Shown here piece after piece: positions 6,778-41,176 of a stretch of DNA of 64,000 nt (positions are counted from its first letter, which is position 1; every line of letters begins with the position of its first letter). A program made the translations under genes and the position numbers. The notes below the pieces were generated by a model. It saw only the letters and a program-made list of their open reading frames with translations. It searched no databases and had not been told where the DNA came from. Where the stretch lies: contig JACKFI010000005.1 of the NCBI GenBank assembly GCA_020632555.1, positions 19,793-83,792 on the forward strand, read 5' to 3'. Origin of the DNA: Candidatus Omnitrophota bacterium (GTDB taxonomy: Bacteria; Omnitrophota; Gorgyraeia; Zapsychrales; JANLHA01).

Positions 6778-6862
6778 CTTTGGCAACTGGCTGCCCTTTG
6801 CTGTGCATGAGGGCCCTATAGCTTTGTGTCCCATCCTTACGAATGGTTTACCTTTTTCCGAC
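6778..6862 (-). promoter_or_regulatory. c-di-GMP-I (GEMM-I)-like riboswitch aptamer, copy 1
   Basis: The minus strand reads AAAAAGGTAAACCATTCGTAAGGATGGGACACAAAGCTATAGGGCCCTCATGCACAGCAAAGGGCAGCCAGTTGCC. It has a GNRA-capped stem, the CAAAGC junction and a 3' GGCA..TGCC helix as in the Vc2 aptamer. It is about 80 nt upstream of the 5431..6699 start. Confidence 0.65.
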
Positions 6863-8356: not shown

Positions 8357-8437
8357 TTTCGGCAACTGGCTGCCCCTGCTGTGCATACGGGCCCTATAGC
8401 TTTGTGTCCCACCCTTACGAATGGTTTACCTTTTCTC
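8357..8437 (-). promoter_or_regulatory. c-di-GMP-I (GEMM-I)-like riboswitch aptamer, copy 2
   Basis: The minus strand reads GAAAAGGTAAACCATTCGTAAGGGTGGGACACAAAGCTATAGGGCCCGTATGCACAGCAGGGGCAGCCAGTTGCCGAAAAG. It is nearly identical to copy 1, while the flanking DNA differs. Confidence 0.7.
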
Positions 8438-8536
8438 TATGTTTATTATTTCATTACTCTGAGAGTGTAAAACACCAATGATGAATCGGCAAGAGCAAAG
8501 CTGAAGAATTATTTAAATTAGCAGCAAGAAAAAAAC

Positions 8537-28320: not shown

Positions 28321-28569
28321 CTGCTGCGCTCAAATGTTTATATGCTTGAGCTTCGCAGAGACACTCTTCTTCGATAATAGATCATCAGCTCGCTTCTTCG
28401 AAGCTCGAACACGAAAGTATTCGAGCGAAGAAAAAAGGAAGAAAACGACCCATCCTGCTTCGCTCAAGAATTCTGATGCTTGAGCTTCGCAGAGACACTC
28501 TTCTTCGATAATAGATCAACAGCTCGCTTCTTCGAAGCTCGAACACGAAAGTATTTGAGCGAAGAAGAG
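28321..28569. repeat. 134-bp tandem direct repeat (about 1.9 copies) abutting the tmRNA 3' end
   Basis: 28342-28431 is repeated at 28476-28565 with a few substitutions. Each unit contains a 14-bp interrupted hairpin (CTTCTTCGCTCGAA...TTCGAGCTTCGAAGAAG on the minus strand). Confidence 0.85.
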
Positions 28570-28961
28570 TGGAGGTGGGGGGAATCGAACCCCCGTCCTT
28601 AAATCACATCATATAAGCTTCTACATGCATAGTTTGTCTTTGAGTCTCATTCTATCGCAGCCGACAAACAGGCCTAAATAGAACCAGTCTTGAAAAGGTT
28701 CGCTATCGACGTCAAGACGCCATCAACAGCTAGCCCGCTAATGACCTCTATACCGACCCGCGGACGCTACCGGTAAAAGGGCTTAGTGGATTTTATCCGA
28801 CTAAGACTGGCTGCTCTGCACCGTTAGCAATAGCTTCGGCTTGAGCGATCAACGCGTCATTGTTTTCTGCGTTTATTTTTGTGCTAGATTTTTTACGAGG
28901 CCAACTAGCGTCCTCGGCATGCCACCTATACTAGTCATCCAAGTCGAGACCAGTCACCCCC
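28570..28961 (-). ncRNA. ssrA: tmRNA (transfer-messenger RNA)
   Basis: The minus-strand 5' end GGGGGTGACTGGTCTCGACTTGG...GCATGCCGAGG...GGCCTCGTAAAAAA resembles the E. coli tmRNA 5' region. The 3' end GGACGGGGGTTCGATTCCCCCCACCTCCA forms the T-arm and a 7-bp acceptor stem with G3:U70. smpB lies 1.3 kb upstream on the same strand. Confidence 0.85.
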
Positions 28962-30767: not shown

Positions 30768-31739
30768 TTAAAATTGTCCTGTCATTTTCATATAAATCGT
30801 CAAAAAAATGGGAATGGTCACAATGCTAGCCAAATGCGTAATAAACACCCCTTCGCTAACAAAATCCTCTTCAATATTGTAATACCGTTTAATCAAAGAC
30901 AAGGTCACTGCGCTGGGAACCGCCGCCTCGAGAATAATCAAAAATCCAATGAGCCCAGAAACCTTAAACGCCACAATAGCTCCCAAAGCCAATAATGGAA
31001 AAATGATCATCTTGGTTACAATAACCATCGCCATTGGCCCGATGGCAATATGCCGCAAACGAAGACTGGCCAATCCACCGCCAACGGTAAACATCGCAAA
31101 GGTCAACGCACAATTACCCAACATTTCGACTGGTTTGATCACCACTTGCGGCAAATAATGCTGTGCGCCAAATCCAATCAAGGTCATCGTCAAAACTGTT
31201 GTCACCAAAGGCGGATTAAAAATCTTTTTCCAATCCATCTTGATTTTCTGTCCTTGCAGCAATAACCCTACCCCCAGAGACCAAATCAATAAATTCGCGC
31301 CAATGATATAGAGAACAATGTAAATATAAAGTGTATGCGCCGGTTGTCCAGTAAAAAGGGCGGCGACTACCACCAGCGGAATATTGCCACAATTTTGAAA
31401 ACCAACCAAGGCCAAAAATTCATTCTTGCGATGGCCTTTAAAACCAAAACCAATCACATACGCCAAAGCCAGAGCAGCTAAAGCCATACCGGCATACAAA
31501 AGCGGCAATTTCCACCAGTAGGGAAACTCCTGAAAACTAAAATGCTGCATCAATTGCGTAAACGCAAAGCATGGCAATAAAATATTGACCAAAACCGCGG
31601 TCAACTGATCTAAGCCGCGATTGTCTAACATTTTGCCTTTGACCGCGAAATACCCGCAAGCCCCTAAGAGCAGAACCTGCATCGTCGCAGAAAACGTAAT
31701 TTGCAAGGTTTCGAAAAACATTGTGCAGGCATTATACAT
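30768..31739 (-). CDS. AEC-family (auxin efflux carrier-like) transporter
   Basis: About 10 TM helices. The N-terminus, 'LLLGACGYFAVKGKMLDNRGLDQLTAVLVNILLPCFAF', is typical of the Mem_trans/AEC family. Confidence 0.75.
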   Translation of the reverse strand: MYNACTMFFETLQITFSATMQVLLLGACGYFAVKGKMLDNRGLDQLTAVLVNILLPCFAFTQLMQHFSFQEFPYWWKLPLLYAGMALAALALAYVIGFGFKGHRKNEFLALVGFQNCGNIPLVVVAALFTGQPAHTLYIYIVLYIIGANLLIWSLGVGLLLQGQKIKMDWKKIFNPPLVTTVLTMTLIGFGAQHYLPQVVIKPVEMLGNCALTFAMFTVGGGLASLRLRHIAIGPMAMVIVTKMIIFPLLALGAIVAFKVSGLIGFLIILEAAVPSAVTLSLIKRYYNIEEDFVSEGVFITHLASIVTIPIFLTIYMKMTGQF

Positions 31740-31754
31740 GAAGACAATTAAAAA

Positions 31755-31783
31755 TTGACAGTAAAAATCAATACGATTATACT
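31755..31783 (+). promoter_or_regulatory. near-consensus sigma70-type promoter (TTGACA-17 nt-TATACT) facing the repeat region and tRNA-Leu
   Basis: TTGACA at 31755-31760, an exact 17-nt spacer and TATACT at 31778-31783. It is divergent from the AEC transporter gene. Confidence 0.5.
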
Positions 31784-31826
31784 CTCTCTGTTGTCATGAC
31801 GAATAAATGGAGCGAAATAATCCTTA

Positions 31827-31900
31827 GAGGGGTTAGGGGTTGGAGGTTAGGGGTTAAGGGTTAGGGGTTAAGGGTTAGGGATTAGTGGTTAGGGGTTGGT
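31827..31900 (+). repeat. G-rich telomere-like heptamer array (GGGGTTA / GGGTTAA variants, about 10 units)
   Basis: GAGGGGTTAGGGGTTGGAGGTTAGGGGTTAAGGGTTAGGGGTTAAGGGTTAGGGATTAGTGGTTAGGGGTTGG. A related block lies at 62648-62672. Confidence 0.9.
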
Positions 31901-31904
31901 GAAT

Positions 31905-32153
31905 GTCATTGCGAGGAGCGTCAGCGACGAAGCAATCCTTAAAGTATGCAACAAAGTGGCTAGAGATTAGTTGTTAGTTGTGTCTTTGCGAACGAAGTGA
32001 GTCCTTGCTGGACGAGGAGCTGTTCAAATATTCAAGGCGAAGCGTCAACCTTGATGGTTGACGCGAAAGTGCAGAAATTAAAAAACTTCTGCCACAGTGA
32101 AGCAATCCATTAAGATTGCTTCGTCAGTCGCTTCGCTCCTTTCTCGCAATGAC
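31905..32153. repeat. imperfect ~35-40-bp inverted repeat pair enclosing a hairpin-rich ~170-bp segment
   Basis: GTCATTGCGAGGAGCGTCAGCGACGAAGCAATCC (31905-31938) is matched by GATTGCTTCGTCAGTCGCTTCGCTCCTTTCTCGCAATGAC (about 32114-32153). Internal hairpins are GCGTCAACC/GGTTGACGC, GCAGAA/TTCTGC and GAAGCAATC/GATTGCTTC. Confidence 0.8.
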
Positions 32154-32158
32154 ACGGT

Positions 32159-32421
32159 GTTTCGCCGAAGTGCGGCCTCCTTCAAAGTACTGAGGCGAAA
32201 CTTATACATTTTGTTCATTCAGGTTTTGCCGAAGTGCGGCCTCCTTCAAAGTACTGAGGCGAAACTTATACATTTTGTTCATTCAGGTTTTGCCGAAGTG
32301 CGGCCTCCTTCAAAGTACTGCGGCAAAACTCGTACATTTTTGTTCATCTAGGTTTTGCCGAAGTGCGGCCTCCTTCAAAGTACTGCGGCAAAACTCGTAC
32401 ATTTTTGTTCATCTAGGTTTT
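32159..32421 (+). repeat. four tandem 64-65-bp repeats, each starting with the 5' flank and first 9 nt of tRNA-Leu
   Basis: GCCGAAGTG recurs at 32164, 32228, 32292 and 32357, and then again as the tRNA 5' end at 32422. Each unit folds as GTTTYGCC(G)-A-AGTGC...GTACT-G-(C)GGCRAAAC. Confidence 0.9.
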
Positions 32422-32503
32422 GCCGAAGTGGTGAAATTGGTATACACGCTGCGTTCAGGGCGCAGTTCTGCAAGGATTGGGGGTTCGAATCCCCCCTTCG
32501 GCA
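32422..32503 (+). tRNA. tRNA-Leu (anticodon CAG)
   Basis: Manual cloverleaf. Acceptor stem GCCGAAG/CTTCGGC, 3-bp D stem, anticodon stem CTGCG/CGCAG with loop TTCAGGG, 13-nt variable arm, T arm GGGGG-TTCGAAT-CCCCC and discriminator A. CCA is not encoded. Confidence 0.85.
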
Positions 32504-32518
32504 TTAAATTTCCTTAAC

Positions 32519-32870
32519 CATTCAAACTATTCCTTTAGCAAAATTTAATGCCAGTACTGCTTTCCTTCTATTCTCTTCCAGAGAAAGCATGTACGGCACT
32601 GATAACCAATAGAACAATTCAAACAATACCCAAAACTTTAATGCCAGCACTGCTTTCCTTTTATTCCCTTCCAGGAAAAGCATGTACGGCACTGATAACC
32701 AATAGAACAATTCAAACAATACCCAAAACTTTAATGCCAGTACTGCTTTCCTTCTATTCTCTTACAGAGAAAGCACGTACGGCACTGATAACCAATAGAA
32801 CAATTCAAACAATACCCAAAACTTTAATGCCAGTACTGCTTTCTAACAAATTAAGCCTTCTCGAAAGAAA
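32519..32870 (+). repeat. 93-bp tandem repeat array (about 3.2 units) with a conserved hairpin, directly 3' of tRNA-Leu
   Basis: AATGCCAGTACTGC recurs at 32547, 32640, 32733 and 32826, an exact 93-bp period. Each unit has the stem GCCAGTACTGCTTTC / GAAAGCATGTACGGC. A related element lies at 38219-38383. Confidence 0.9.
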
Positions 32871-32936
32871 TCAAGAAGGATCCTGTTTGACAGTTTTCTA
32901 GGCTTATGCTATTTATTAACAAAAGGAGATTATTCT

Positions 32937-33149
32937 ATGACCGCAAAAAATATTGAACGCAGTGCTGTAAAACTTCCCCCCATCAAACGTCTCCGCTTGA
33001 TCGAAATCTTGATCGCCAGTCTGGATAAGCCTGATGCCGCTATCGAACGTACCTGGGCCGCAGAATCCGACAAACGCCTTACCGCCTATAAAAAAGGCTC
33101 GCTTAAAGCCGTTTCCCTTGACAGCGTAAAAAGACGCTTTATCAAATGA
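32937..33149 (+). CDS. putative addiction-module antitoxin (TIGR02574-like component)
   Basis: 'LPPIKRLRLIEILIASLDKPDAAIERTWAAESDKRLTAYKKG' matches the 'addiction module component' family that pairs with ParE/RelE toxins. Its stop overlaps the toxin ATG (ATGA). Confidence 0.7.
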   Translation: MTAKNIERSAVKLPPIKRLRLIEILIASLDKPDAAIERTWAAESDKRLTAYKKGSLKAVSLDSVKRRFIK

Positions 33150-33429
33150 AAATTGTTTTTTACCACAATCCCAGAAAGAGCTAGCCGATGCTGTCGATTT
33201 TTATGAAAAACAGCTCAATGGTCTAGGGAAGATGTTCTCCAAAGAAATTTTCCAAACCATAAACTTGATCAGTTTATATCCACAAGGGTGGCAACGCATC
33301 ACTAAACATACTCGCAAATGCTCATTTCGCAAATTCCCATATATGGTGCTTTATGGGATTATTGATGACGTTATTGTTATTTCCTCCATCGCCCATCAGC
33401 ACCGGCATCCCAATTCTTACATGAACTAA
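33146..33429 (+). pseudogene. RelE/ParE-family toxin gene with a frameshift in a T6 run
   Basis: The ATG at 33146 gives MKIVFYHNPRKS*. One extra T in the run at 33156-33161 would give MKIVFLPQSQKELADAVDFYEKQLNGLGKMFSKEIFQTINLISLYPQGWQRI..., which is continuous with ORF 33232..33429. Confidence 0.65.
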
Positions 33430-33453
33430 ATCGATTAGAGCCAACAAATATTT

Positions 33454-34131
33454 CTAGAAATTCATAAAGAAAATCAAAAAAATACCTCCGGCCACGGCAA
33501 CCAACGACATACAAATTTCATAATGTCGCGAATGTATTTCACTACGGCTTTCTGGTCTGTAAAAATAAATAAATATTCCAAAAGCAATGAGAGCCATCCC
33601 GAATAAATTATGATTTAGCCATTTAAAATACGTGCAAGAGGCTATGAAAAAAATCGCTGCACTATAAGTCAGTGATAAAATTGTCCCACAGCTCGGGGGA
33701 GGATTAACCCCATCATTAACTAAATTCGATGAGACTCGTTCCTTAATCAACTGAGATATCTCGTCCATCTTTTCCATACCAAAAATATTAATAGTTTGAG
33801 CATCATCCTCTATTGTTATAAAAACATTTTTAGTGCGACGGATTGACACCGCTTTTACATCTTTAAATTTTATCTCCTTGGTAATCGACCCGACTGCCTC
33901 TTTGGATTGATAATGAATTTTTTCTTCCGTGATTGTGATTTTTCGACTAGCAAGACTCCGCTTTTGTAATATGAAAATAACGAAAATAAAAGCCAGCACT
34001 ACAACTAATTCGACAGCATTCTTATAATGCCGCCCCAAAAGAATCACCGCAGCCGCAATAATCCCTAAATAATACGGATAAGGGATATCTTCCTTCCCAA
34101 CACGAAAAATCTTTTCTGTAATTTTGCCCAT
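33454..34131 (-). CDS. membrane protein with a central bacterial PH-like domain
   Basis: Two N-terminal and about three C-terminal TM helices flank 'ITITEEKIHYQSKEAVGSITKEIKFKDVKAVSIRRTKNVFITIEDD', a bPH/DUF304-like pattern. Confidence 0.4.
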   Translation of the reverse strand: MGKITEKIFRVGKEDIPYPYYLGIIAAAVILLGRHYKNAVELVVVLAFIFVIFILQKRSLASRKITITEEKIHYQSKEAVGSITKEIKFKDVKAVSIRRTKNVFITIEDDAQTINIFGMEKMDEISQLIKERVSSNLVNDGVNPPPSCGTILSLTYSAAIFFIASCTYFKWLNHNLFGMALIAFGIFIYFYRPESRSEIHSRHYEICMSLVAVAGGIFLIFFMNF

Positions 34132-34304
34132 TATCCCTCCTGCTCTTTATTATCCTTCGATGCGCGGCCGTCCTTTTTAAGGGCTTCCGCTAAAATATAC
34201 TCAATCTGAGCATTGACGCTTCTAAAATTATCGGCTGCCCACTTTTCCAAAACCTCGAAGACAGGCTTATCAACCCTTAAAAGAAATTTCTTTTTTTCAC
34301 TCAT
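34131..34304 (-). CDS. unannotated 57-aa Arc/MetJ-type ribbon-helix-helix protein
   Basis: Own translation: MSEKKKFLLRVDKPVFEVLEKWAADNFRSVNAQIEYILAEALKKDGRASKDNKEQEG. It has the RHH pattern (beta strand FLLRV, then RSxNAxIEyiL). The RBS GAGG is 7 nt upstream. Its stop overlaps the next start (TAATG). Confidence 0.55.
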   Translation of the reverse strand: MSEKKKFLLRVDKPVFEVLEKWAADNFRSVNAQIEYILAEALKKDGRASKDNKEQEG

Positions 34305-34332
34305 AAAAGAGCCTCAAATAATTCTCAAAAAA

Positions 34333-35196
34333 TTACGAATACAAAGTCCCCGTATTCATAACGGGGGTGACCTCATGTTCAGAAACAAGTGCAACCAAAA
34401 GATTATTGGTCATCTGCGCTTTCTTGTCTGAGTCTAAATCAATCAATTTCTTCTGACTCAGCAGTTGAATGGCATGCTCAACCATCCCGACTGCCCCCTC
34501 GACAATTCTTGCCCGTGCCGCAATAATGGCATCTGCTTGCTGACGGCGCAACATAACCTGTGCAATTTCTGGCGCATAAGCTAAATGGCTGATCCGACTT
34601 TCTAAAACCTCAATCCCGGCAATCTCTAAACGAGCTTGAACTTCTTTACGCAGCTCCTCTGAAACCTCGGCCTGATTTCCTCTCAAAGACTCCTTTTTTT
34701 CTTCTGTGGAATCATAAGAATATTGCGAAGCTAAGGCCCGAATGGCTGTCTCACATTGAATCTTGACAAACTCCTGATAATTCTCAACGTCAAAAAGGGC
34801 TTTGGCGCTATCAACAACTCTCCAAACAACAACCGCAGCAATCTCGATGGGGTTACCCTTTAAATCATTCACTTTCAGCGTTTCACTATTTAAATTATGA
34901 ATCCGCAAAGAAACACTTTTTCTTAAAGTTAACGGATTGACCCACCATAATCCTGAGGCACTGACAGTTCCGATATAATTACCAAAAAAAACAAGCACTT
35001 TTGCCTCATTCGGCTGCACAACAATAAGCCCTCCAACAATGCCTAGGAAAATGGCTATACTGAAAATTGTTAATATTGGATTAGCATGCCTATCAAGTAT
35101 GCCTCCTGTAAAAAAGAGGTATCCTATAATCAACAAAATACCTATCATTATGTAACCACTTACTTTCCAAGCATTTACCTCTTTAATCTTTTCCAT
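34333..35196 (-). CDS. SPFH/band-7 (stomatin/flotillin-like) domain protein
   Basis: TM hairpin followed by '[16 protein letters not shown]...LWWVNPL...[23 protein letters not shown]', typical of the SPFH fold. The start was chosen at MEKIK (35196) for its RBS spacing. Confidence 0.8.
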
Positions 35197-35306
35197 AACC
35201 ATTCTCCTTTTTGATTTATGATATCTTGATTTTGGCTTAAAGAGCGCGAACTGATATTTAAATGATATCATAACAATATCGAATTGTCAAGGGTTGCCAC
35301 GAAGAA

Positions 35307-36639
35307 GGTGATGTACACTCAATTGTGTAAATTCGTTTACTAGCGGTAAAAAGGGCGTATCCTTCCAAAAAAGAGACCAATCTTTAAATGGAAAGGAATA
35401 CGCCCATGAAAACCGCTAACTTCACAGGCAATTTTAGACACAGATGGCAATTTGCCAAGCATTTTTTTGCCGAAACAAACACCGCCAATTTTTGGCTAGA
35501 TATAAACAAATTTGCTAAATCCATGACAAAAGAATTTTTTGAAATCTCCCTCGAGGAAGAAATGATCCAATATCAGCAAAGAAAATCTTACCAAAGAACG
35601 CCAAACCGCCTCGATTACCGTAACGGCCATTACCTGCGTAACATGGATACGGCTTTCGGTCCAATTGAAAATATCCAAGTCCCTCGCTGCCGTTCAGGAC
35701 TTTTTAAGCCTTCAATGTTTAACAAATATCAACGTCGTCAAGACTCGGTCAATCAATCGATCATCAACTGCTTTTTGCTGGGCGTTTCGACCCGCAATGT
35801 TAAAGATGTCTTAAAACCTTTACTGGGCATCAACATCTCGGCTTCAACCGTCTCCAACGTAACAAAAGCTGTTGATAAATTAGTCAAAGAATTCCACAAC
35901 CGCCCACTACTTGATGAATATCAATTTATCTTTATCGACGGCATTAATATCTCTGTGCGCTATGGTTCTAAATCCATCAAAAAAACTGTTCTAGCCGCCT
36001 ACGGTATTACGCTTTTCGGCCAGCGCGAGCTTATAGACTTTCGTATCGTCAAATCAGAATCCAAAGACGCCTGCGAATCTTTTTTAAATTATCTTTTTAA
36101 TCGCGGGCTCAAAGGTGAAAATCTCAAGCTGATAATTACCGACGGTGGCAAAGGGCTCATCAGTGCTTTGGCTATCGTTTACCCAGAAGTCAAACATCAG
36201 CGTTGTTGGTTCCACAAACTTCAAAACATTACCAAACTTCTTAAAAAGAAAGATCAAAATGAAGTCGTCAAAGCTTTGCAAAAAATTTACAACGCACAAT
36301 CTAAAGCCATCGCCCTTAAACGCTTCAAGGATTTTAAGTTTTTATGGAATAAAAAATACCCTGATGTCATCAAGTCTCTTGAAAAAGATTTAGAAGAACT
36401 TCTTAATTTTTTAACGATTCCTATCAAAAAAGAATTTCGTAGCTTTATTCGCAAGCGCATTCGCACCACAAATGTTATCGAACGTTCGTTCCGTGAAGTC
36501 AGGCGCCGGACTCGGCCGATGTCCTGTTTTAACAACAATGACAGCCTTCAACGCATCATTTATGCTGTCTTTTATCGTTTAAATACAAACTGGAAGGCCA
36601 AACCCTTAACCCAATTTACACAATTTATTTGACATTACC
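35307..36639 (+). mobile_element. IS256-family insertion sequence
   Basis: The terminal inverted repeats are GGTGATGTACACTCAATTGTGTAAATT (left) and, as the complement of the right end, GGTAATGTCAAATAAATTGTGTAAATT. 9-bp target duplication CACGAAGAA at 35298-35306 and 36640-36648. Confidence 0.8.
35388..36632 (+). CDS. IS256-family (Mutator-type) transposase
   Basis: 'RNGHYLRNMDTAFGPIENIQVPRCR', 'FIDGINISVR', 'IITDGGKGLISAL' and 'QRCWFHKLQNI' are canonical Transposase_mut motifs. Confidence 0.9.
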   Translation: MERNTPMKTANFTGNFRHRWQFAKHFFAETNTANFWLDINKFAKSMTKEFFEISLEEEMIQYQQRKSYQRTPNRLDYRNGHYLRNMDTAFGPIENIQVPRCRSGLFKPSMFNKYQRRQDSVNQSIINCFLLGVSTRNVKDVLKPLLGINISASTVSNVTKAVDKLVKEFHNRPLLDEYQFIFIDGINISVRYGSKSIKKTVLAAYGITLFGQRELIDFRIVKSESKDACESFLNYLFNRGLKGENLKLIITDGGKGLISALAIVYPEVKHQRCWFHKLQNITKLLKKKDQNEVVKALQKIYNAQSKAIALKRFKDFKFLWNKKYPDVIKSLEKDLEELLNFLTIPIKKEFRSFIRKRIRTTNVIERSFREVRRRTRPMSCFNNNDSLQRIIYAVFYRLNTNWKAKPLTQFTQFI

Positions 36640-36650
36640 CACGAAGAAGG

Positions 36651-37025
36651 CTATACAAGTCGTCCTGTTAGCTTTAAGACTAGAACAAGAAATTTATGTC
36701 GCGTCCCCCAATCAGGATATTCGACTAAATCCTTGCCGCAATGACCTGTCGCCTCAAAACCTTTGATTAAATTCTCTGCCAAAAGTTTATCAGTAATTCC
36801 CGCCCGCTCTAATAATTCCGCCATACCGACTCTTACCGACATTTCGATCTTGTTGGCATGATCTCTCGCATAAGTTTCTGAATAGCCTGCAGACCGAGCG
36901 GCCTTATACTGATTCATCCCTCTAAATCTATTGGCGAAATATTTTCGCTGACGAAGAGTGACTTGTAATCGCGGTTGAACCTCGGTTGATAAATTTCCGA
37001 TTTCAAGTGTCGCGCTTCCCGGCAT
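36651..37025 (-). CDS. phage terminase small-subunit-like HTH protein
   Basis: 'LRQRKYFANRFRGMNQYKAARSAGYSETYARDHANKI' resembles the Terminase_2 N-terminal HTH (KqrkFaeeY...Na.qAa..AGYS...A...a..ll). Confidence 0.5.
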   Translation of the reverse strand: MPGSATLEIGNLSTEVQPRLQVTLRQRKYFANRFRGMNQYKAARSAGYSETYARDHANKIEMSVRVGMAELLERAGITDKLLAENLIKGFEATGHCGKDLVEYPDWGTRHKFLVLVLKLTGRLV

Positions 37026-37028
37026 AAA

Positions 37029-37646
37029 TCACCTCCCGTGTTCTGCACACTCCCGTTGCTGTGGCATAGAATTACCTTTTTTCAATAGCTTAGAGACCGT
37101 TGACTTATCACAGCCTACCTCAGAGCCAATTTGACTTAACGATCTTCCTTGGACTCTTAAATCGAATATTTCTTGCACATTGACTTTTTGTGGCCGCCCC
37201 AATTTTACACCCTTTGCTTTTAAGTGAGTGAGTTTCAATTTGGTTCGCTCAGAAATCATATCTCGCTCAAACTGTGAAAAGGCCGCGACAATATGAAACA
37301 TCAACTTGCCGCTCGCCGTGGTTGAATCAAAATCCTTTTCTGAATAGCTAATAAAATCAACGCCATATTCTTTCAACAAGCCCATCGTATTGACCAACTC
37401 TTTCAGGATCCGGCTGAACCGATCTAATTTATAAACAAGAACCGCATCAATCTTACGCCGACGAGCATCTTCCAGTAAGCGTTGATATTGAGGACGGTTT
37501 TGTTTCATGGCACTTTCGCCATCGTCGATATACTCATCAACAACTTGGCAATTTACTTTTCTGCAATACTCACAAAGAACTTCCAACTGTTGCGCAGACG
37601 TTTAATCCTGAGTGCTAACACGTGCGTAAATTCCGATATTTTTCAC
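37029..37646 (-). pseudogene. small serine recombinase (resolvase/invertase) with an in-frame TAA at codon 15
   Basis: RBS AAGGAG plus the GTG at 37646 gives VKNIGIYARVSTQD*TSAQQLEVLCEYC... The stop at 37602-37604 replaces the conserved Gln of the YxRVSTxxQ catalytic motif. The remainder has the resolvase core and a C-terminal HTH. Confidence 0.7.
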
Positions 37647-38010
37647 TTTTCGACTCCTTTTGTTTGTAGGGAACAAAATTTCCCTTGGCGTTAATGCGTC
37701 CGTGAATATTTTTGAAAAACTTGCCATAAGCGCCTCTTACTTTAAAAGACATAATTCACCCCTTGCAGCAGATGCTTTCCTGCTTTTTAATAACTCATCT
37801 AACACCAAGTTGAATTGTAGCCGAGGATCTCCTGCCGTTTAAGGTCGACCACAATCCTTTCTTGGCTATAACTTCCCTCGCACCGCTCAGGATTCTTGAA
37901 CAATCGTAAAACTTGTCTCACCCAAGCACGTTAGTTTCAGCCGTTCGGAAAGGCGACACACGATCCGTCTCGTTCCAAGTTTGATTTATATTCCGCCAAA
38001 CCCAGAGGTC

Positions 38011-38045
38011 AAAAAAGGCGGCAACAAACAAAAACGGCTCCTTAC
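38011..38045 (-). terminator. Rho-independent terminator-like hairpin (minus strand)
   Basis: The minus strand reads CGGCTCC-CTTGTAA-GGAGCCG followed by TTTTTGTTTGTT. No convincing CDS lies upstream of it. Confidence 0.4.
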
Positions 38046-38218
38046 AAGGGAGCCGTGGCAAAAAATTTGGCAAAGAATACCCGATTTTTGCGGATATTCT
38101 GCTAAACTACTCAAATTAACTTGAAGGAACTTATAACGTAGTAGCGTCGAAGAAGTATCTTTTAAGCTTTTGTTGCGGGGGAAGAGACCGCTTCCCCCCT
38201 TCGGCACTTGCTTTCTCT

Positions 38219-38383
38219 AGCTTTCAAAACTATCCTTTAGCAGAAGCAAGTGCCAGTACTGCTTTCCTTTCATTCCCTTCTAGGAAAAGCATGTACGGCA
38301 CTGATAACCAATAGAACAATTCAAACAATACCCAAAACTTTAATGCCAGTATTGCTTTCCAAAAAATTAGGCCTCCTCTAATA
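38219..38383 (+). repeat. second locus of the 93-bp hairpin element (about 1.2 units) with the same 5' and 3' flanks as 32519-32870
   Basis: TTCAAAACTATCCTTTAGCA...GTGCCAGTACTGCTTTCC...GGAAAAGCATGTACGGCACTGATAACCAATAGAACAATTCAAACAATACCCAAAACTTTAATGCCAGTATTGCTTTCC is collinear with the array after tRNA-Leu. Confidence 0.85.
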
Positions 38384-38392
38384 TTTTATCCC

Positions 38393-38421
38393 TTGCCAAG
38401 CTTGGCATTCCCATATAAAAT
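38393..38421 (+). promoter_or_regulatory. candidate sigma70-type promoter for the pyruvate dehydrogenase operon
   Basis: TTGCCA at 38393-38398, a 17-nt spacer and TAAAAT at 38416-38421, about 55 nt upstream of the aceE start. Confidence 0.4.
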
Positions 38422-38476
38422 ACGAACCTTCATTTAAGAATTTGTCTATTTTTACCATATAGAAAGGGTTGATCCT

Positions 38477-41176
38477 ATGGGCGATGGCGTACAAAAGAGT
38501 TCAGCAACAGTAGACGAAATTGAGATCCAAGAATGGCTTACGTCTCTGGATTATGTTTTAAAACATGGCAGCAAAGAACAAGCCCATCGGATTTTACAGC
38601 AATTGCAAATCAAAGCTCAAGAAGCTGGCGTCACCCTTCCCTTTGCGGTCAATACGCCCTATATCAATACCATCGCTCCCGAAAAACAGCCGCCTTACCC
38701 AGGCAATCGCGAAATTGAACGCCGCATCAAAAGCATTATTCGCTGGAACGCGATGGCCATGGTCATCCGCGGCAATCAAGCTGAAAACGGCATCGGCGGT
38801 CATATTTCAACCTTTGCTTCTTCCGCGACTTTACTGGAAGTTGGTTTCAATCATTTTTTCCGCGCACAAACCAAAGACTTTTGCGGCGACTTCGTTTATT
38901 TTCAAGGCCACGGATCTCCGGGAATCTATAGCCGCGCTTTCGTTGAAGGCCGCTTGACAGAAGAACATTTGATCAATTTCCGACGAGAATTAGCTGCCGG
39001 CGGCGGATTATCATCCTATCCTCATCCATGGCTGATGCCAAACTTTTGGCAATTCCCCACGGTTTCCATGGGTTTGGGCCCGATTATGTCGATTTATCAT
39101 GCCCGTTTTAACCGCTATCTTGAAGATCGCGGCCTAAAAGCCAAAGATGATCACAAAATCTGGGTTTTTATCGGCGACGGCGAATGCGATGAGCCAGAAA
39201 CTTTGGGCGCCATCACCATGGCTTCCCGTGAAAAACTGGACAATTTGATTTTTGTCATCAATTGCAACTTGCAACGTTTGGATGGACCAGTTCGCGGCAA
39301 CGGCAAAATGATTCAGGAACTCGAAGCCCTGTTTCGCGGCGCGCAATGGAACGTCATCAAAGTCATTTGGGGCACCGATTGGGATCCAATTTTAGACAAA
39401 GACACCGATGGCCTGCTGACCAAACGTATGGGCGAAGTGGTCGATGGGCAATATCAGAAATATTCCGTCGAAACCGGCGATTATATCCGCAAAGATTTCT
39501 TCGGCACGGATCCTAAACTCTTGGATATGGTCAAACATCTTTCCGATGAATCTTTACAAAAAATGAAACGCGGCGGCCATGATCCCAATAAAGTTTATAC
39601 CGCTTATAAAGCCGCTGTCGATTTCAAGGGCGCGCCGACCGTTATCATTGCCAAAACCATCAAAGGTTATGGCTTGGGCGAAAGCGGCGAAGGTAAAAAT
39701 ATTTCTCATCAGCAGAAAAAACTTAATGCCGAGGAACTTAAAGAATTTCGTTCACGATTCAACATTCCTATTTCTGATGAGGATATTGCCAAAACACCAT
39801 TCTTCCGTCCGGCAGAAGATTCCCAAGAAATGCAATACCTCAAAGAACGCCGGGAAGCCTTGGGTGGATTTATCCCACAACGTCGAACATCATCAACAGC
39901 GATGCAAACGCCTTGCGAAGAACTTTTTGAAGAATTTTATAAAGGCACCGACGGCCGCGAAGTTTCAACCACCATGGCCTATGTGCGCATCTTAACCAAA
40001 CTCTTAAAAGACAGCACCGTGGGCAAACTCATTGTTCCGATTATACCTGACGAAGCTCGCACTTTTGGAATGGAGGCTTTATTCCGTCAATGCGGCATTT
40101 ACTCCCATGTCGGTCAATTGTATGAACCTGTGGATAAAGACAGCTTGCTCTACTACAAAGAAGCCACCGACGGACAAATCCTCGAAGAAGGCATCAATGA
40201 AGCAGGGGCAATGTCCTCCTTTATCGCCGCGGGCACCGCGTATTCAACTCAAGCGGTTAACACCGTTCCTTTTTACACCTACTATTCGATGTTCGGCCCG
40301 CAAAGAATCGGCGACTTGATCTGGGCTGCCGCTGATATGCGCTGCCGCGGATTTCTCGTCGGCGCGACATCCGGCCGCACAACCTTAAATGGAGAGGGCT
40401 TGCAACACCAAGACGGACACAGTCATTTGCTTTTATCCACTGTGCCCAATTGTTTAGCTTATGATCCGGCTTTTGCTTATGAATTGGCTGTCATCATTCG
40501 TCATGGCATTTACCGTATGTATGAAAAACAAGACAGTGTCTTTTACTATCTTTCCGTTGGCAATGAAAACTATCCGATGCCAGCTATGCCTGTGTCGACT
40601 ACTGCCACAGCTGAAAGCATCAAAGAAGGCATTATTAAAGGAATGTATAAATTTAAAGCTTCCGCGAAAAAAGGTTCAACTCTGCGCGCACAATTATTTG
40701 GCAGTGGCGCGATTATGAATCAAGTGCTGGAAGCCCAAAAAGTTCTAGAAGAAAAATACAATGTCGCCACCGATGTCTGGAGCATCACCAGCTATAATGA
40801 AATCCGCCGCGAAGCATTGCACGTCGAGCGCTGGAATACACTCAATCCGCTGGAGCAACCCAAGGTTCCTTACATTACCAGTTTATTAGCCAAAGAAGAT
40901 GGTGTCTTTGTCGCGGCATCCGACTATATGAAAACTTTGCCGGATGCCATTAGCCGCTGGGTTCCCCGCAAATTAGTCACACTGGGAACTGACGGATTTG
41001 GGCGCAGCGAAAGCCGCAAAGCCTTGCGCAATTTCTTTGAAATGGACAGCCGACATATTGTTTACGCGGCCTTAGGCAGTTTATACCGAGAGAAGAAAAT
41101 CAGCGCGGATATTCTCAAAGCCGCTGCTAAAGACATGGGCATCAATCCGGATAAGTTAAATCCCATGATTAGCTAG
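38477..41176 (+). CDS. aceE: pyruvate dehydrogenase E1 component, homodimeric type
   Basis: 899 aa. 'GGHISTFASSATL', 'GDGECDEPE' and 'NCNLQRLDGPVRGN' are typical of AceE. It is followed by the E2 and E3 genes. Confidence 0.9.
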   Translation: MGDGVQKSSATVDEIEIQEWLTSLDYVLKHGSKEQAHRILQQLQIKAQEAGVTLPFAVNTPYINTIAPEKQPPYPGNREIERRIKSIIRWNAMAMVIRGNQAENGIGGHISTFASSATLLEVGFNHFFRAQTKDFCGDFVYFQGHGSPGIYSRAFVEGRLTEEHLINFRRELAAGGGLSSYPHPWLMPNFWQFPTVSMGLGPIMSIYHARFNRYLEDRGLKAKDDHKIWVFIGDGECDEPETLGAITMASREKLDNLIFVINCNLQRLDGPVRGNGKMIQELEALFRGAQWNVIKVIWGTDWDPILDKDTDGLLTKRMGEVVDGQYQKYSVETGDYIRKDFFGTDPKLLDMVKHLSDESLQKMKRGGHDPNKVYTAYKAAVDFKGAPTVIIAKTIKGYGLGESGEGKNISHQQKKLNAEELKEFRSRFNIPISDEDIAKTPFFRPAEDSQEMQYLKERREALGGFIPQRRTSSTAMQTPCEELFEEFYKGTDGREVSTTMAYVRILTKLLKDSTVGKLIVPIIPDEARTFGMEALFRQCGIYSHVGQLYEPVDKDSLLYYKEATDGQILEEGINEAGAMSSFIAAGTAYSTQAVNTVPFYTYYSMFGPQRIGDLIWAAADMRCRGFLVGATSGRTTLNGEGLQHQDGHSHLLLSTVPNCLAYDPAFAYELAVIIRHGIYRMYEKQDSVFYYLSVGNENYPMPAMPVSTTATAESIKEGIIKGMYKFKASAKKGSTLRAQLFGSGAIMNQVLEAQKVLEEKYNVATDVWSITSYNEIRREALHVERWNTLNPLEQPKVPYITSLLAKEDGVFVAASDYMKTLPDAISRWVPRKLVTLGTDGFGRSESRKALRNFFEMDSRHIVYAALGSLYREKKISADILKAAAKDMGINPDKLNPMIS

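What the first reader, a model, noticed from the sequence alone, without database searches (positions are those of the whole stretch)
32519..38383. A 5.4-kb island downstream of tRNA-Leu bracketed by direct copies of a 93-bp hairpin element and carrying a dead serine recombinase
The element after the tRNA has 3.2 units at an exact 93-bp period. Each unit has a 14-bp bulged stem, GCCAGTACTGCTTTC/GAAAGCATGTACGGC. It reappears in the same orientation at 38219-38383 as 1.2 units.

Both loci share leader and trailer sequence: TTCAAACTATTCCTTTAGCA... at the start and ...AATGCCAGTAYTGCTTTC-AAATTARGCCT at the end.

Between the two copies lie accessory genes only:
- a TA pair with a frameshifted toxin;
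- an SPFH-RHH-PH-membrane operon;
- an IS256 element with a 9-bp duplication;
- a terminase-small-subunit-like HTH protein;
- a small serine recombinase whose catalytic-motif Gln codon is TAA.

Direct repeats plus a resolvase-type enzyme suggest an excisable cassette that is now immobilised. Alternatively, the 93-bp element is a variable-copy intergenic repeat that simply occurs on both sides.
Basis: partly seen in the sequence, partly recalled or inferred. Interest (0 to 1): 0.6.

Follow-up and report, generated by a model that had tools for sequence, protein, structure and literature searches.

The report
Decayed island at tRNA-Leu with trailer repeats
A 5.3-kb piece of foreign DNA, now disabled by three separate mutations, sits in the 3' end of a leucine tRNA gene, and the 93-bp hairpin repeats at both its ends are copies of that tRNA's own downstream "trailer", not the recombinase's recognition sites.

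Summary
tRNA-Leu(CAG) is followed by 3.3 exact-period 93-bp hairpin units, and 1.2 more units lie 5.5 kb downstream. All gene calls hold, except that "PH" is unsupported and the terminase call is weak.

Its last 14 nt (TCCCCCCTTCGGCA) recur exactly at 38193-38206, ahead of the second module.

In 13 related Omnitrophota-like loci, tRNA-Leu(CAG) lies 25-320 bp from aceE. So 32863-38192 is an insertion at the tRNA 3' end.

Hairpins homologous to the unit follow tRNA-Leu in two of these relatives and keep their base pairs through compensatory changes. The unit is absent from 11 other loci that carry the recombinase family. It therefore looks like a tRNA-linked trailer repeat, similar in kind to E. 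coli TLRs, and not a res/att site.

Intact relatives of the recombinase sit beside tRNA or tmRNA 3' ends. In complete elements, xis and a tyrosine integrase occupy the opposite end. The window copy lacks that integrase, so the serine enzyme was probably an accessory.

Verdict: an ordinary kind of thing, a decayed tRNA island, with an unusual repeat architecture. Interest is moderate to low.

The parts
31755..31783 (+). Sigma-70-like promoter (TTGACA-17-TATACT) of tRNA-Leu. It lies about 640 nt upstream of the tRNA here, against 30-110 nt in relatives.
   Evidence: Promoter scan, 11/12 match. The same TTGACA...TATACT is seen just upstream of tRNA-Leu in L003, L006, L008, L031 and L085.
32159..32430 (+). 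64-bp tandem array, 4.2 copies. Each unit starts with the tRNA 5' end (GTTTTGCCGAAGTG) and folds as a small acceptor-like hairpin.
   Evidence: TRF, 96% matches. Repeat families D2/D5. Fold -18.2 kcal/mol, z = -3.3.
32421..32504 (+). tRNA-Leu(CAG), with no encoded CCA.
   Evidence: ARAGORN. Rfam RF00005 at 54.9 bits.
32490..32503 (+). Copy 1 of the att-like core TCCCCCCTTCGGCA. It spans the T-stem 3' strand, the acceptor 3' strand and the discriminator base.
   Evidence: Exact 14-mer repeated at 38193. Only two + strand matches in the window.
32500..32552 (+). Left leader hairpin: GGCATTAAATTT / AAATTTAATGCC, a 12-bp stem that begins with the tRNA's terminal GGCA.
   Evidence: Fold z = -5.65. 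Covariation across 6 instances.
32549..32843 (+). 93-bp array: three full units and a final 16-nt 5' arm. Each unit is a 50-nt bulged hairpin (TGCC...GGCA) plus a 43-nt invariant linker that resembles the tRNA trailer.
32844..32862 (+). Shared trailer (TAACAAATTAAGCCTTCTC), marking the end of homology with the right module and the left junction of the island.
   Evidence: Pairwise alignment and unit listing.
32937..33149 (+). Antitoxin (Unstab_antitox / TIGR02574).
   Evidence: Pfam 3.7e-13. NCBIfam 1.7e-9.
33146..33429 (+). ParE-family toxin pseudogene, with a frameshift in a T-run after MKIVF.
   Evidence: Three-frame translations. Pfam ParE_toxin on the distal part.
33454..34131 (-). 225-aa membrane protein of unknown family.
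   Evidence: ORF list. No Pfam, NCBIfam, PADLOC or PHROG hit.
34131..34304 (-). Arc-like ribbon-helix-helix protein.
   Evidence: Pfam 8.8e-8. PHROG Arc-like repressor.
34333..35271 (-). SPFH/Band 7 protein.
   Evidence: Pfam 1.7e-24.
35307..36639 (+). IS256-family insertion sequence. The transposase is at 35388-36632. The 9-bp target duplication CACGAAGAA is at 35298-35306 and 36640-36648.
   Evidence: Pfam Transposase_mut 2.3e-93. Inverted repeats. Flanks.
36651..37025 (-). 124-aa HTH protein, weakly similar to terminase small subunits. It always follows the recombinase gene in close relatives.
   Evidence: Pfam 9e-4. PHROG 9e-5. Same gene order in L167, L176 and L179.
37029..37646 (-). Small serine recombinase pseudogene (catalytic domain plus C-terminal HTH_38). 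TAA at 37604-37602 replaces the conserved Gln.
   Evidence: Sequence. Homologs carry Q at this position.
37615..37752 (-). Conserved 45-aa ORF overlapping the recombinase start (motif GRINxKGNFVP).
   Evidence: ORF list. Conserved in L168, L172 and L173 in alignment A2.
37760..38040 (-). Conserved non-coding leader of the recombinase gene and a candidate structured RNA. It is preceded by a terminator-like hairpin at 38056-38034 and a CCGCC-N19-GGCGG motif at 38021-37993.
   Evidence: Alignments A2, A4, A5 and A7. Terminator scan. Motif occurs once in the window. No Rfam match.
38193..38206 (+). Copy 2 of the core TCCCCCCTTCGGCA, a remnant tRNA 3' end. It is preceded by an imperfect T-arm-like hairpin GGGGGAAG-agaccg-CTTCCCCC.
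38203..38254 (+). Right leader hairpin: GGCACTTGCTT(T)C / GAAGCAAGTGCC. Same architecture as the left one, but the arms differ and compensate each other.
   Evidence: Fold z = -5.0. Covariation.
38251..38378 (+). Right array: one full 93-bp unit, a 16-nt 5' arm and the shared trailer. The conserved aceE promoter (38393-38421) and aceE (38477-41176) follow directly.
   Evidence: Promoter homology with relatives.

Best explanation
**What the sequence shows**
- Bases 32863-38192 (5,330 bp) are foreign DNA inserted at the 3' end of tRNA-Leu(CAG), between the tRNA and the aceE promoter.
- The repeat that brackets the insertion is a duplicated copy of the tRNA's last 14 nt followed by the tRNA's trailer.
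- That trailer consists of a 12-bp leader stem that starts at the tRNA's terminal GGCA, then one or more 93-bp units, then a 19-nt tail.

**What I infer about the 93-bp unit**
- It is a tRNA-linked trailer repeat that belongs to the tRNA-Leu/aceE spacer of this lineage.
- Each unit has a hairpin whose outer base pairs and 3' end copy the tRNA's acceptor end. After it comes a linker that copies the tRNA trailer.
- It is most likely co-transcribed with the tRNA as a structured 3' trailer, serving in termination, processing or stability.
- Its copy number probably changes by unequal recombination.
- It is not the recombinase's recognition site.

**What I infer about the island**
- It is the decayed remainder of a two-ended integrative element family found in Omnitrophota-like genomes.
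- In that family a small serine recombinase module sits at one end, and xis plus a tyrosine integrase sit at the other.
- The tyrosine integrase, absent from the window island and inferred to have been lost, most likely carried out the integration. The serine enzyme was probably an accessory, resolvase-like function.
- The trailer module is present twice for one of two reasons. Either the incoming circle carried a captured copy of "tRNA end + trailer", or it recombined through that homology.

**Present state**
- The element has no integrase.
- Its serine recombinase carries a nonsense codon, its ParE toxin is frameshifted, and an IS256 has inserted.
- It can probably be lost only by homologous recombination between the 186-373-bp direct repeats.
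For: **Empty site**
- tRNA-Leu(CAG) lies 25-320 bp upstream of aceE in L002, L003, L006, L007, L008, L009, L031, L083, L084, L085, L086, L088 and L089.
- The aceE promoter is conserved. In the window it lies directly after the right module.

**Duplication starts inside the tRNA**
- The exact 14-mer TCCCCCCTTCGGCA occurs at 32490 and 38193.
- These are the only two + strand copies in the window.
- Island GC is 0.36-0.43, against 0.44-0.50 in the flanks.

**Hairpin homologs in relatives without this island or recombinase**
- L010 has GCC-T-GCACTGATT/AATCAGTGC-GGCA. L002 has GCG-A-GTACTTATT/AATAAGTAC-CGCA.
- Both lie right after the tRNA and keep pairing through compensatory changes.
- Their outer 3 bp track that genome's own acceptor stem.

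**Leader stem**
- Six instances show 97% of cells paired, and 7 of 12 pairs change on both sides.
- None of 500 shuffles reach this.

**Unit conservation**
- The unit linker aligns with the tRNA trailer.
- All 9 variable unit positions fall in the hairpin and none in the 43-nt linker, P = 0.0026.

**No link between the unit and the recombinase**
- blastn-short of the unit and modules against 179 loci (2.49 Mb) hits only the same-genome contig L001.

**Recombinase family context**
- The gene lies 0.5-0.8 kb from a tRNA or tmRNA 3' end, or a remnant of one, in L167, L168, L170, L172, L173, L177, L178 and L179.
- xis and a tyrosine integrase occupy the opposite end in L170, L172, L177 and L179.
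- In L170, L172 and L177, tRNA direct repeats of 28-50 nt follow that integrase. In L177, arm-type repeats lie at both junctions.
- L167 is a clean analogue: the same recombinase and terminase-like gene pair, and a 19-bp tRNA-Leu(CAA) repeat beside the recombinase end.

**Decay**
- TAA replaces Gln.
- ParE is frameshifted.
- IS256 has a 9-bp target duplication.
- tblastn finds no tyrosine-integrase trace anywhere in the window.
Against: - The nearest relatives share only about 80% aceE identity. No close relative or read set was available to show a recent empty site or a circular junction.
- The genome-wide count of the 93-bp unit could not be made. Only 64 kb of this genome is held, and a 24-mer of the unit has no hit in any collection.
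- Three elements with only the serine recombinase (window, L167, L173) have short 11-19-bp cores that end at the acceptor 3' strand. In L167 the recombinase is intact, so it could itself be the integrase.
- Its catalytic domain scores best against integrase-type serine recombinases: TP901-1 and CcrB.
- How the trailer module came to be at both ends is inferred only. The units are as similar between ends (85-90 of 93) as within the left array (86-91 of 93), while the leader arms differ completely. A simple capture model does not predict this.
- Transcription and any RNA role of the hairpins are untested.
Confidence: 0.6

Rival explanations
1. The small serine recombinase is itself the integrase, a "serine-core" integrase. 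It recombined an attP next to its own gene with the 14-bp 3' end of tRNA-Leu. The nonsense codon is what immobilised the island.
For: - attP-like remnant cores lie 0.5-0.8 kb upstream of the recombinase gene in the window, L167 and L179, with the same geometry.
- L167 has an intact recombinase, clean 19-bp repeats and no other recombinase within its 5.5 kb.
- The catalytic domain is closest to TP901-1 integrase (2e-21) and to CcrB/XisF.
- The TIGER/Islander authors state that serine-core islands may reveal novel integrases (PMC12424338).
Against: - Complete elements in both orientations also carry xis and a tyrosine integrase.
- In L170, L172 and L177 these come with long tRNA repeats, and in L177 arm-type repeats lie at both junctions.
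- In L162 and L165 the recombinase follows a primase-helicase replication module, as a plasmid resolvase would.
- No dimer-type crossover site was recognised at the cores.
Confidence: 0.2
2. One reading: the 93-bp hairpin elements are res-like sites of the resolvase-type enzyme, which excised the cassette by recombination between the two directly repeated copies.
For: - Direct repeats bracket the island, and the recombinase gene lies about 0.55 kb from the right copy.
Against: - The unit is absent from all other loci holding the recombinase family.
- Homologous hairpins follow tRNA-Leu in relatives that lack this island and recombinase.
- The hairpin arms covary between genomes, which suggests a structural constraint and not a fixed protein-binding sequence.
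- The 15-bp arms are separated by about 18 nt, unlike a serine-recombinase dimer site (from my own knowledge of res and hix sites).
- The repeat begins inside the tRNA.
Confidence: 0.06
3. There is no island. The genes between tRNA-Leu and aceE are ancestral, and a variable-copy intergenic repeat happens to lie on both sides.
For: - The repeat is a tRNA-trailer element with relatives in other genomes.
Against: - Thirteen relatives have tRNA-Leu adjacent to aceE.
- The second copy is preceded by an exact 14-nt copy of the tRNA 3' end.
- The cargo is typical mobile-element content with lower GC.
- The recombinase module is 86% identical to an unrelated contig, L176.
Confidence: 0.03

Closest known systems
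E. coli tRNA-linked repeats (TLRs; Egan & Landy 1978; Rudd 1999; reviewed in PMC8144298)
   Same: - One to five tandem units lie immediately downstream of a tRNA (or rRNA) gene.
- Each unit ends in a copy of the 3' end of that gene.
- Function is unknown or only partly known. Three rRNA-linked TLRs are processed sRNAs that bind Hfq and CsrA.
   Different: - Only 5-6 nt (CGGCA) of the tRNA end is copied here, against 18-19 bp in E. coli.
- The unit is a 50-nt bulged hairpin whose 5' arm also copies the tRNA 5' end.
- A second array carrying tRNA 5' ends lies upstream of the tRNA.
- A different phylum. Sequence similarity to E. coli TLRs was not tested.
Genomic islands integrated at tRNA 3' ends by tyrosine integrases (P4-like islands, Islander/TIGER class)
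   Same: - Insertion at the 3' end of a tRNA.
- A direct repeat of the tRNA 3' end at the far junction.
- An empty site in relatives.
- Accessory cargo (toxin-antitoxin pair, SPFH operon, IS) and lower GC.
   Different: - No integrase gene is left.
- The direct repeat extends about 170-360 bp past the tRNA end into a structured trailer repeat.
"Serine Core" genomic islands of TIGER/Islander (PMC12424338)
   Same: - The island's only recombinase is a ~200-aa resolvase/invertase-like enzyme that lacks the Recombinase domain.
   Different: - Comparative context here suggests a helper or lost tyrosine integrase, one of the options those authors list.
Tn3 / gamma-delta resolvase and Gin/Hin invertases
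   Same: - An N-terminal serine catalytic domain plus a C-terminal HTH, about 200 aa.
- A conserved non-coding region lies directly upstream of the gene, where res lies in Tn3 (the Tn3 point is from my own knowledge).
   Different: - No Tn3 transposase or invertible segment is present.
- The gene is consistently beside tRNA or tmRNA junctions.
- The upstream region behaves like an RNA: it has a variable hairpin with compensatory arms and many G.U pairs.

Membership tests
tRNA-integrated genomic island | Lies at the 3' end of a tRNA gene, with a direct repeat of the tRNA 3' end at the distal junction | tested here: met
   14-nt exact repeat at 32490-32503 and 38193-38206.
tRNA-integrated genomic island | Absent from the same locus in relatives (empty site) | tested here: met
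   13 relatives have tRNA-Leu(CAG) 25-320 bp from aceE. The relatives are distant, at about 70-80% aceE identity.
tRNA-integrated genomic island | Encodes a functional integrase | tested here: not met
   Only a serine-core recombinase pseudogene is present. No tyrosine-integrase trace in the window.
tRNA-integrated genomic island | Excision products (circular junction, restored attB) detectable | not testable with these tools
   No read data. The only contig with the exact aceE is a 5.8-kb Logan contig that breaks inside the repeat.
tRNA-linked repeats (TLR, E. coli sense) | One to five tandem units directly downstream of a tRNA or rRNA gene | tested here: met
   3.3 units start 45 nt after the tRNA. 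1.2 units follow the remnant tRNA end.
tRNA-linked repeats (TLR, E. coli sense) | 18-19 bp at the unit's 3' end identical to the 3' end of the upstream gene | tested here: not met
   Only CGGCA (5-6 nt) is shared: unit GTACGGCA against tRNA CTTCGGCA. In L002, 7 nt are shared (CCGCACC).
tRNA-linked repeats (TLR, E. coli sense) | Transcribed as part of the tRNA precursor | not testable with these tools
   Same strand as the tRNA, and no promoter or canonical terminator between them in the scan. No expression data.
Small serine recombinase (resolvase/invertase) | N-terminal Resolvase domain with the YxRVSTxxQ motif, a C-terminal HTH, and no Recombinase or zinc-ribbon domains | tested here: met
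   Pfam Resolvase 3.1e-42 plus HTH_38, 205 aa. The motif Gln codon is TAA in the window.
Small serine recombinase (resolvase/invertase) | Two copies of its recombination site flank the segment it acts on | tested here: inconclusive
   The conserved CCGCC-N19-GGCGG motif upstream of the gene occurs once in the window. The 93-bp unit is not associated with the family elsewhere.
IS256 family | Mutator-type transposase, terminal inverted repeats and an 8-9-bp target duplication | tested here: met
ParDE-like type II toxin-antitoxin pair | Adjacent small antitoxin and ParE-fold toxin genes, both intact | tested here: not met
   The antitoxin is intact. The toxin needs a frameshift in a T-run to be read.

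The most novel reading that the evidence does not exclude
The hairpin arrays on both sides of tRNA-Leu may be functional RNAs and not recombination debris. The arrays are the 64-bp units carrying the tRNA 5' end upstream, and the 93-bp units carrying acceptor-like ends downstream.

On this reading they are co-transcribed with the tRNA from the promoter 640 nt upstream. tRNA-processing enzymes then cut them out at their acceptor-stem-like ends. The released small hairpin RNAs would act through the invariant 43-nt single-stranded linker as a regulator or sponge. This would be a TLR-type RNA family in an uncultivated phylum.

A related untested possibility concerns the conserved ~250-nt leader upstream of the serine recombinase. 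It may be a new structured RNA that controls, or works with, that enzyme.
Probability: 0.15. Interest if true: 0.6.

Novelty: new variant of a known kind. Interest (0 to 1): 0.35.

Why it matters
tRNA genes are the classic landing pads for mobile DNA. This locus shows that the repeat bracketing an island can include a long structured stretch of the tRNA's own trailer. That stretch can mislead site prediction, and it gives a recombinase-independent route to island loss.

The locus also gives a second example, outside the enterobacteria, of tRNA-linked repeats, whose function has been unclear since 1978. Here there is base-pair covariation and an invariant linker that could be tested.

Finally, it points to a family of two-ended integrative elements in Omnitrophota-like genomes. 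In these, a small serine recombinase with a conserved RNA-like leader always sits at a tRNA or tmRNA junction. This bears on the open question of what "serine-core" recombinases do in genomic islands.

Tried and rejected
**Searches for the unit elsewhere**
- A 24-mer of the unit was scanned in genome contigs, metagenome contigs and viral contigs. A gapped hairpin pattern was scanned in viral contigs. All gave 0 hits, so no genome-wide or cross-genome count was possible.
- The exact-protein look-up of aceE found only a 5.8-kb Logan contig that breaks inside the repeat.

**Library searches with no useful hit**
- Rfam at gathering and E-value thresholds found nothing but the tRNA in 31700-38500.
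- PADLOC gave no defence-system hit for the SPFH operon, the recombinase or the HTH protein.
- The recombinase module has no match in phage genomes, and the recombinase has no relative in viral contigs.

**Coding hypothesis for the array**
- 93 = 31 codons, and an ORF at 32548-32901 is open through the array.
- Rejected: I see no ribosome-binding site.
- By my reading of the units, 2 of the 9 variable positions are synonymous and 7 change the encoded residue.
- The reverse frame is also open.

**Other ideas dropped**
- CsrA-type GGA loops: present in only two of the four units.
- A promoter inside the units: none found by the scan.
- The recombinase leader as a target-matching guide RNA: I saw no segment complementary to the different tRNA cores (alignments).
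- The island as a simple deletion derivative of the "tRNA-recombinase...integrase" arrangement. Rejected because the recombinase end abuts the remnant and not the tRNA. L179 shows that a second, mirror arrangement exists.

Full report

Yes. tRNA-Leu(CAG) lies at 32421-32504. Tandem Repeats Finder reports a 93-bp period with 3.3 copies, 93% matches and no indels at 32539-32843. A further full unit plus a 16-nt 5' arm lies at 38251-38359.

The 53-nt stretch GGCACTGATAACC...TTTAATGCCAG is identical in all four copies. It occurs nowhere else in the 64 kb, where zero matches are expected by chance. Each unit folds into a bulged hairpin, TGCCAGTACTGCTTTC...GAAAGCATGTACGGCA, at -18.3 kcal/mol with z = -4.5.

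The gene calls hold:
- Unstab_antitox antitoxin and a ParE toxin frameshifted in a T-run.
- SPFH and Arc/RHH proteins.
- An IS256-family element with inverted repeats and a 9-bp duplication CACGAAGAA.
- A weak terminase-small-subunit-like HTH protein.
- A 205-aa serine recombinase reading VKNIGIYARVSTQD*TSAQQ. Eight homologs, including one that is 91% identical, have Gln at the stop.
- The "PH" label for the 225-aa membrane protein is not supported by any library.

**2.

The last 14 nt of the tRNA, TCCCCCCTTCGGCA, recur exactly at 38193-38206. These are the only two + strand copies in the window. An imperfect T-arm-like hairpin precedes the second copy.

The same module follows in both places:
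- A 12-bp "leader" stem that starts with the tRNA's terminal GGCA and ends in TGCC.
- One or more 93-bp units.
- A 16-nt 5' arm.
- A shared tail, AAATTARGCCTYCTC.

Homology runs 32490-32862 on the left and 38193-38378 on the right. That leaves 5,330 bp of unique DNA, of which 1,342 bp are the IS and its duplication.

**3. It is an insertion.**

The aceE protein places the genome among Omnitrophota-like MAGs, with a best identity of 80-81%. In 13 of these relatives, tRNA-Leu(CAG) lies 25-320 bp upstream of aceE. The aceE promoter (TTGCCA/TTGCAG...TAnAAT) is conserved, and a tmRNA gene lies upstream of tRNA-Leu in several of them. In the window that promoter sits directly after the right module. 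Island GC is slightly lower than the flanks, 0.36-0.43 against 0.44-0.50.

A repeated tRNA 3' end plus an empty site in relatives is the standard signature of integration into a tRNA gene.

**4. What the 93-bp element is.**

Homologous hairpins lie directly after tRNA-Leu(CAG) in two relatives that have neither this island nor the recombinase:
- L010: GCC-T-GCACTGATT...AATCAGTGC-GGCA.
- L002: GCG-A-GTACTTATT...AATAAGTAC-CGCA(CC).

Both keep the bulge and the loop similarity, and pairing is kept through compensatory changes. The outer three base pairs and the 3' end follow each genome's own tRNA acceptor stem: GCC/GGCA in the window and L010, GCG/CGCACC in L002.

The leader stem is found in six instances, each with different but complementary arms: window left, window right, L010, L002, L085 and L007. 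On hand-extracted arms, 97% of cells pair and 7 of 12 pairs change on both sides. None of 500 shuffles reach these values.

The linker of each unit aligns with the tRNA's own trailer. A unit is therefore a hairpin in the place of the tRNA, followed by the trailer. All nine variable positions among the four units fall in the hairpin, mostly in the loop. None falls in the 43-nt linker (P = 0.0026).

The closest described thing is the tRNA-linked repeats (TLRs) of E. coli. These are one to five units downstream of tRNA or rRNA genes, each ending in a copy of that gene's 3' end, with largely unknown function (PMC8144298). The window element works like a TLR but fails the defining 18-19-bp identity, sharing only 5-6 nt. 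I therefore call it TLR-like and not a member.

I infer, but cannot show, that it is co-transcribed with the tRNA as a structured trailer. It lies on the same strand, and the scan found no promoter or canonical terminator between them.

**5. It is not the recombinase's site.**

blastn-short of the unit and both modules against all 179 fetched loci (2.49 Mb) hits only the same-genome contig. Those loci include 11 that carry close homologs of the recombinase. No Rfam family matches.

**6. What the recombinase family does elsewhere.**

The repaired protein has 1,072 relatives at E <= 1e-10, many named as Omnitrophota. In eight independent contexts the gene lies 0.5-0.8 kb from a tRNA or tmRNA 3' end, or from a remnant of one:
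- tRNA-Leu(CAA): L168 and L167.
- tRNA-Glu(CTC): L170, L173 and L177.
- tRNA-Phe: L172.
- tmRNA: L178.
- An inverted tRNA-like core: L179.

In L170, L172, L177 and L179 the opposite end of the element carries an HTH_17 (xis-like) gene and a tyrosine integrase. In L170, L172 and L177 a 28-50-nt tRNA repeat follows that integrase. In L177, arm-type repeats (GGGTTACAA) lie at both junctions. So the complete elements are two-ended, and the tyrosine enzyme is the likely integrase.

L167 is the best analogue of the window. It has the same recombinase and terminase-like pair, and a 19-bp tRNA repeat beside the recombinase end. It has no tyrosine integrase, but its recombinase is intact. L173 shows three successive remnant cores, meaning tandem accretion at one tRNA.

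The window has no tyrosine-integrase trace. I therefore read the island as a decayed, integrase-less derivative.

A minority reading, about 0.2, is that the serine enzyme is itself the integrase. Its catalytic domain is closest to TP901-1, CcrB and XisF. The TIGER/Islander authors leave this possibility open for "serine-core" islands (PMC12424338).

**7. Why the trailer module is on both sides.**

This part is inference only. There are two options:
- The circular element carried a captured copy of "tRNA end + trailer" from an earlier imprecise excision.
- It integrated by homologous crossover within such a copy.

Units are as similar between the two ends (85-90 of 93) as within the left array (86-91 of 93). 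The leader arms, by contrast, differ at every position. This suggests later homogenisation of the units or a crossover inside them.

In practice, 186-373 bp of roughly 93%-identical direct repeat would give a recombinase-independent route to deletion of the island.

**8. Verdict.**

The finding is a real but ordinary kind of object: a decaying island in a tRNA gene. Its repeat architecture is unusual and deserves a note, not a headline.

The more interesting leads are side observations:
- The arrays of acceptor-like hairpins on both sides of the tRNA.
- The conserved RNA-like leader of the serine recombinase.
- The two-ended element family.

Noticed in passing
window 32159-32430 (+): A second tandem array, 64 bp x 4.2 copies at 96% matches, lies directly upstream of tRNA-Leu. 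Each unit starts with the tRNA's 5' end (GTTTTGCCGAAGTG) and contains CTTC...GGCA, so it folds like a mini acceptor stem (-18.2 kcal/mol, z = -3.3). L085 has a single similar duplication of the tRNA 5' end (19 nt) about 150 nt upstream of its tRNA-Leu.
   Followed up: partly
window 31755-31783 and 31784-32420: The conserved tRNA-Leu promoter (TTGACA-17-TATACT) is about 640 nt upstream of the tRNA, against 30-110 nt in relatives. The gap is filled with repeats.
   Followed up: partly
window 31828-31897 (+): A heptamer repeat AGGGGTT x 10, G-rich and telomere-like, so possibly quadruplex-prone. It lies in the tRNA leader on the sense strand.
   Followed up: no
window 31897-31960 / 32091-32155: A long inverted repeat (GTCATTGCGAGGAGCGTCAGCGACGAAGCAATCC... 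and its complement) lies between the promoter and the 64-bp array. Similar GC-rich palindromes (e.g. CCTGCGAAGC...GCTTCGCAGG) lie upstream of tRNA-Leu in L002, L007, L083 and L085.
   Followed up: no
window 37760-38040 (-); L168, L172, L173, L177, L178 upstream of the recombinase gene: A conserved ~250-nt non-coding leader of the serine recombinase gene has no Rfam match.
- Stems: CUUUCC/GGGAAG and CUUGGG/CCUGAG (GG to AA with CC to UU in L168).
- A variable hairpin has fully compensatory arms: ACAA/UUGU, AUGGC/GCCAU, GUGA/UCAC, ACAG/CUGU, AUGGG/CCCAU.
- Many G.U pairs lie on the recombinase strand.

This is a candidate new structured RNA, or part of a res-like region.
   Followed up: partly
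window 37615-37752 (-): A small ORF (45 aa here) overlaps the recombinase start. Its motif GRINxKGNFVP is conserved in L168, L172 and L173. It has no family hit.
   Followed up: partly
L170, L172, L177, L179 (also L168, L173, L178): A family of integrative elements at tRNA and tmRNA genes has a fixed two-ended layout. One end carries a terminator, the leader RNA, the small ORF, the serine recombinase and a small HTH protein. The other end carries HTH_3, HTH_17 (xis-like) and a tyrosine integrase. In L177, arm-type repeats GGGTTACAATTTGGGTTACAAA lie at both junctions.
   Followed up: partly
L173 12173, 13499, 15246: Three successive remnant copies of the tRNA-Glu 3' end (GGGGCTA, with conserved flanks) lie downstream of one tRNA. 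This is tandem accretion of decayed elements, and a possible route to tRNA-linked repeat arrays.
   Followed up: partly
L007 ~598-650: A remnant tRNA-Leu 3' end (tctctCCTCCGGCA) lies about 130 nt after the functional tRNA. Its T-stem type matches that of L085 and not L007's own tRNA. A perfect 13-bp palindrome starting at GGCA follows it. This looks like the scar of an earlier integration at the same tRNA.
   Followed up: partly
L176 2208-2237 vs window 36610-36639: The contig carrying the closest recombinase homolog (91% aa identity, a different sample) also ends in the same IS256 terminal repeat (30/30 nt). The insertion position there is different, so the IS is active in related populations.
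   Followed up: partly
window 6778-6861 (-) and 8358-8440 (-): Two c-di-GMP-I class riboswitch aptamers lie 1.5 kb apart (Rfam 61.7 and 61.3 bits).
   Followed up: no
window 28569-28961 (-): A tmRNA with a long tag peptide, AENNDALIAQAEAIANGAEQPVLVG, that ends in LVG and not the usual LAA. Relatives have similar long tags ending ...PALV or ...PAIA.
   Followed up: no
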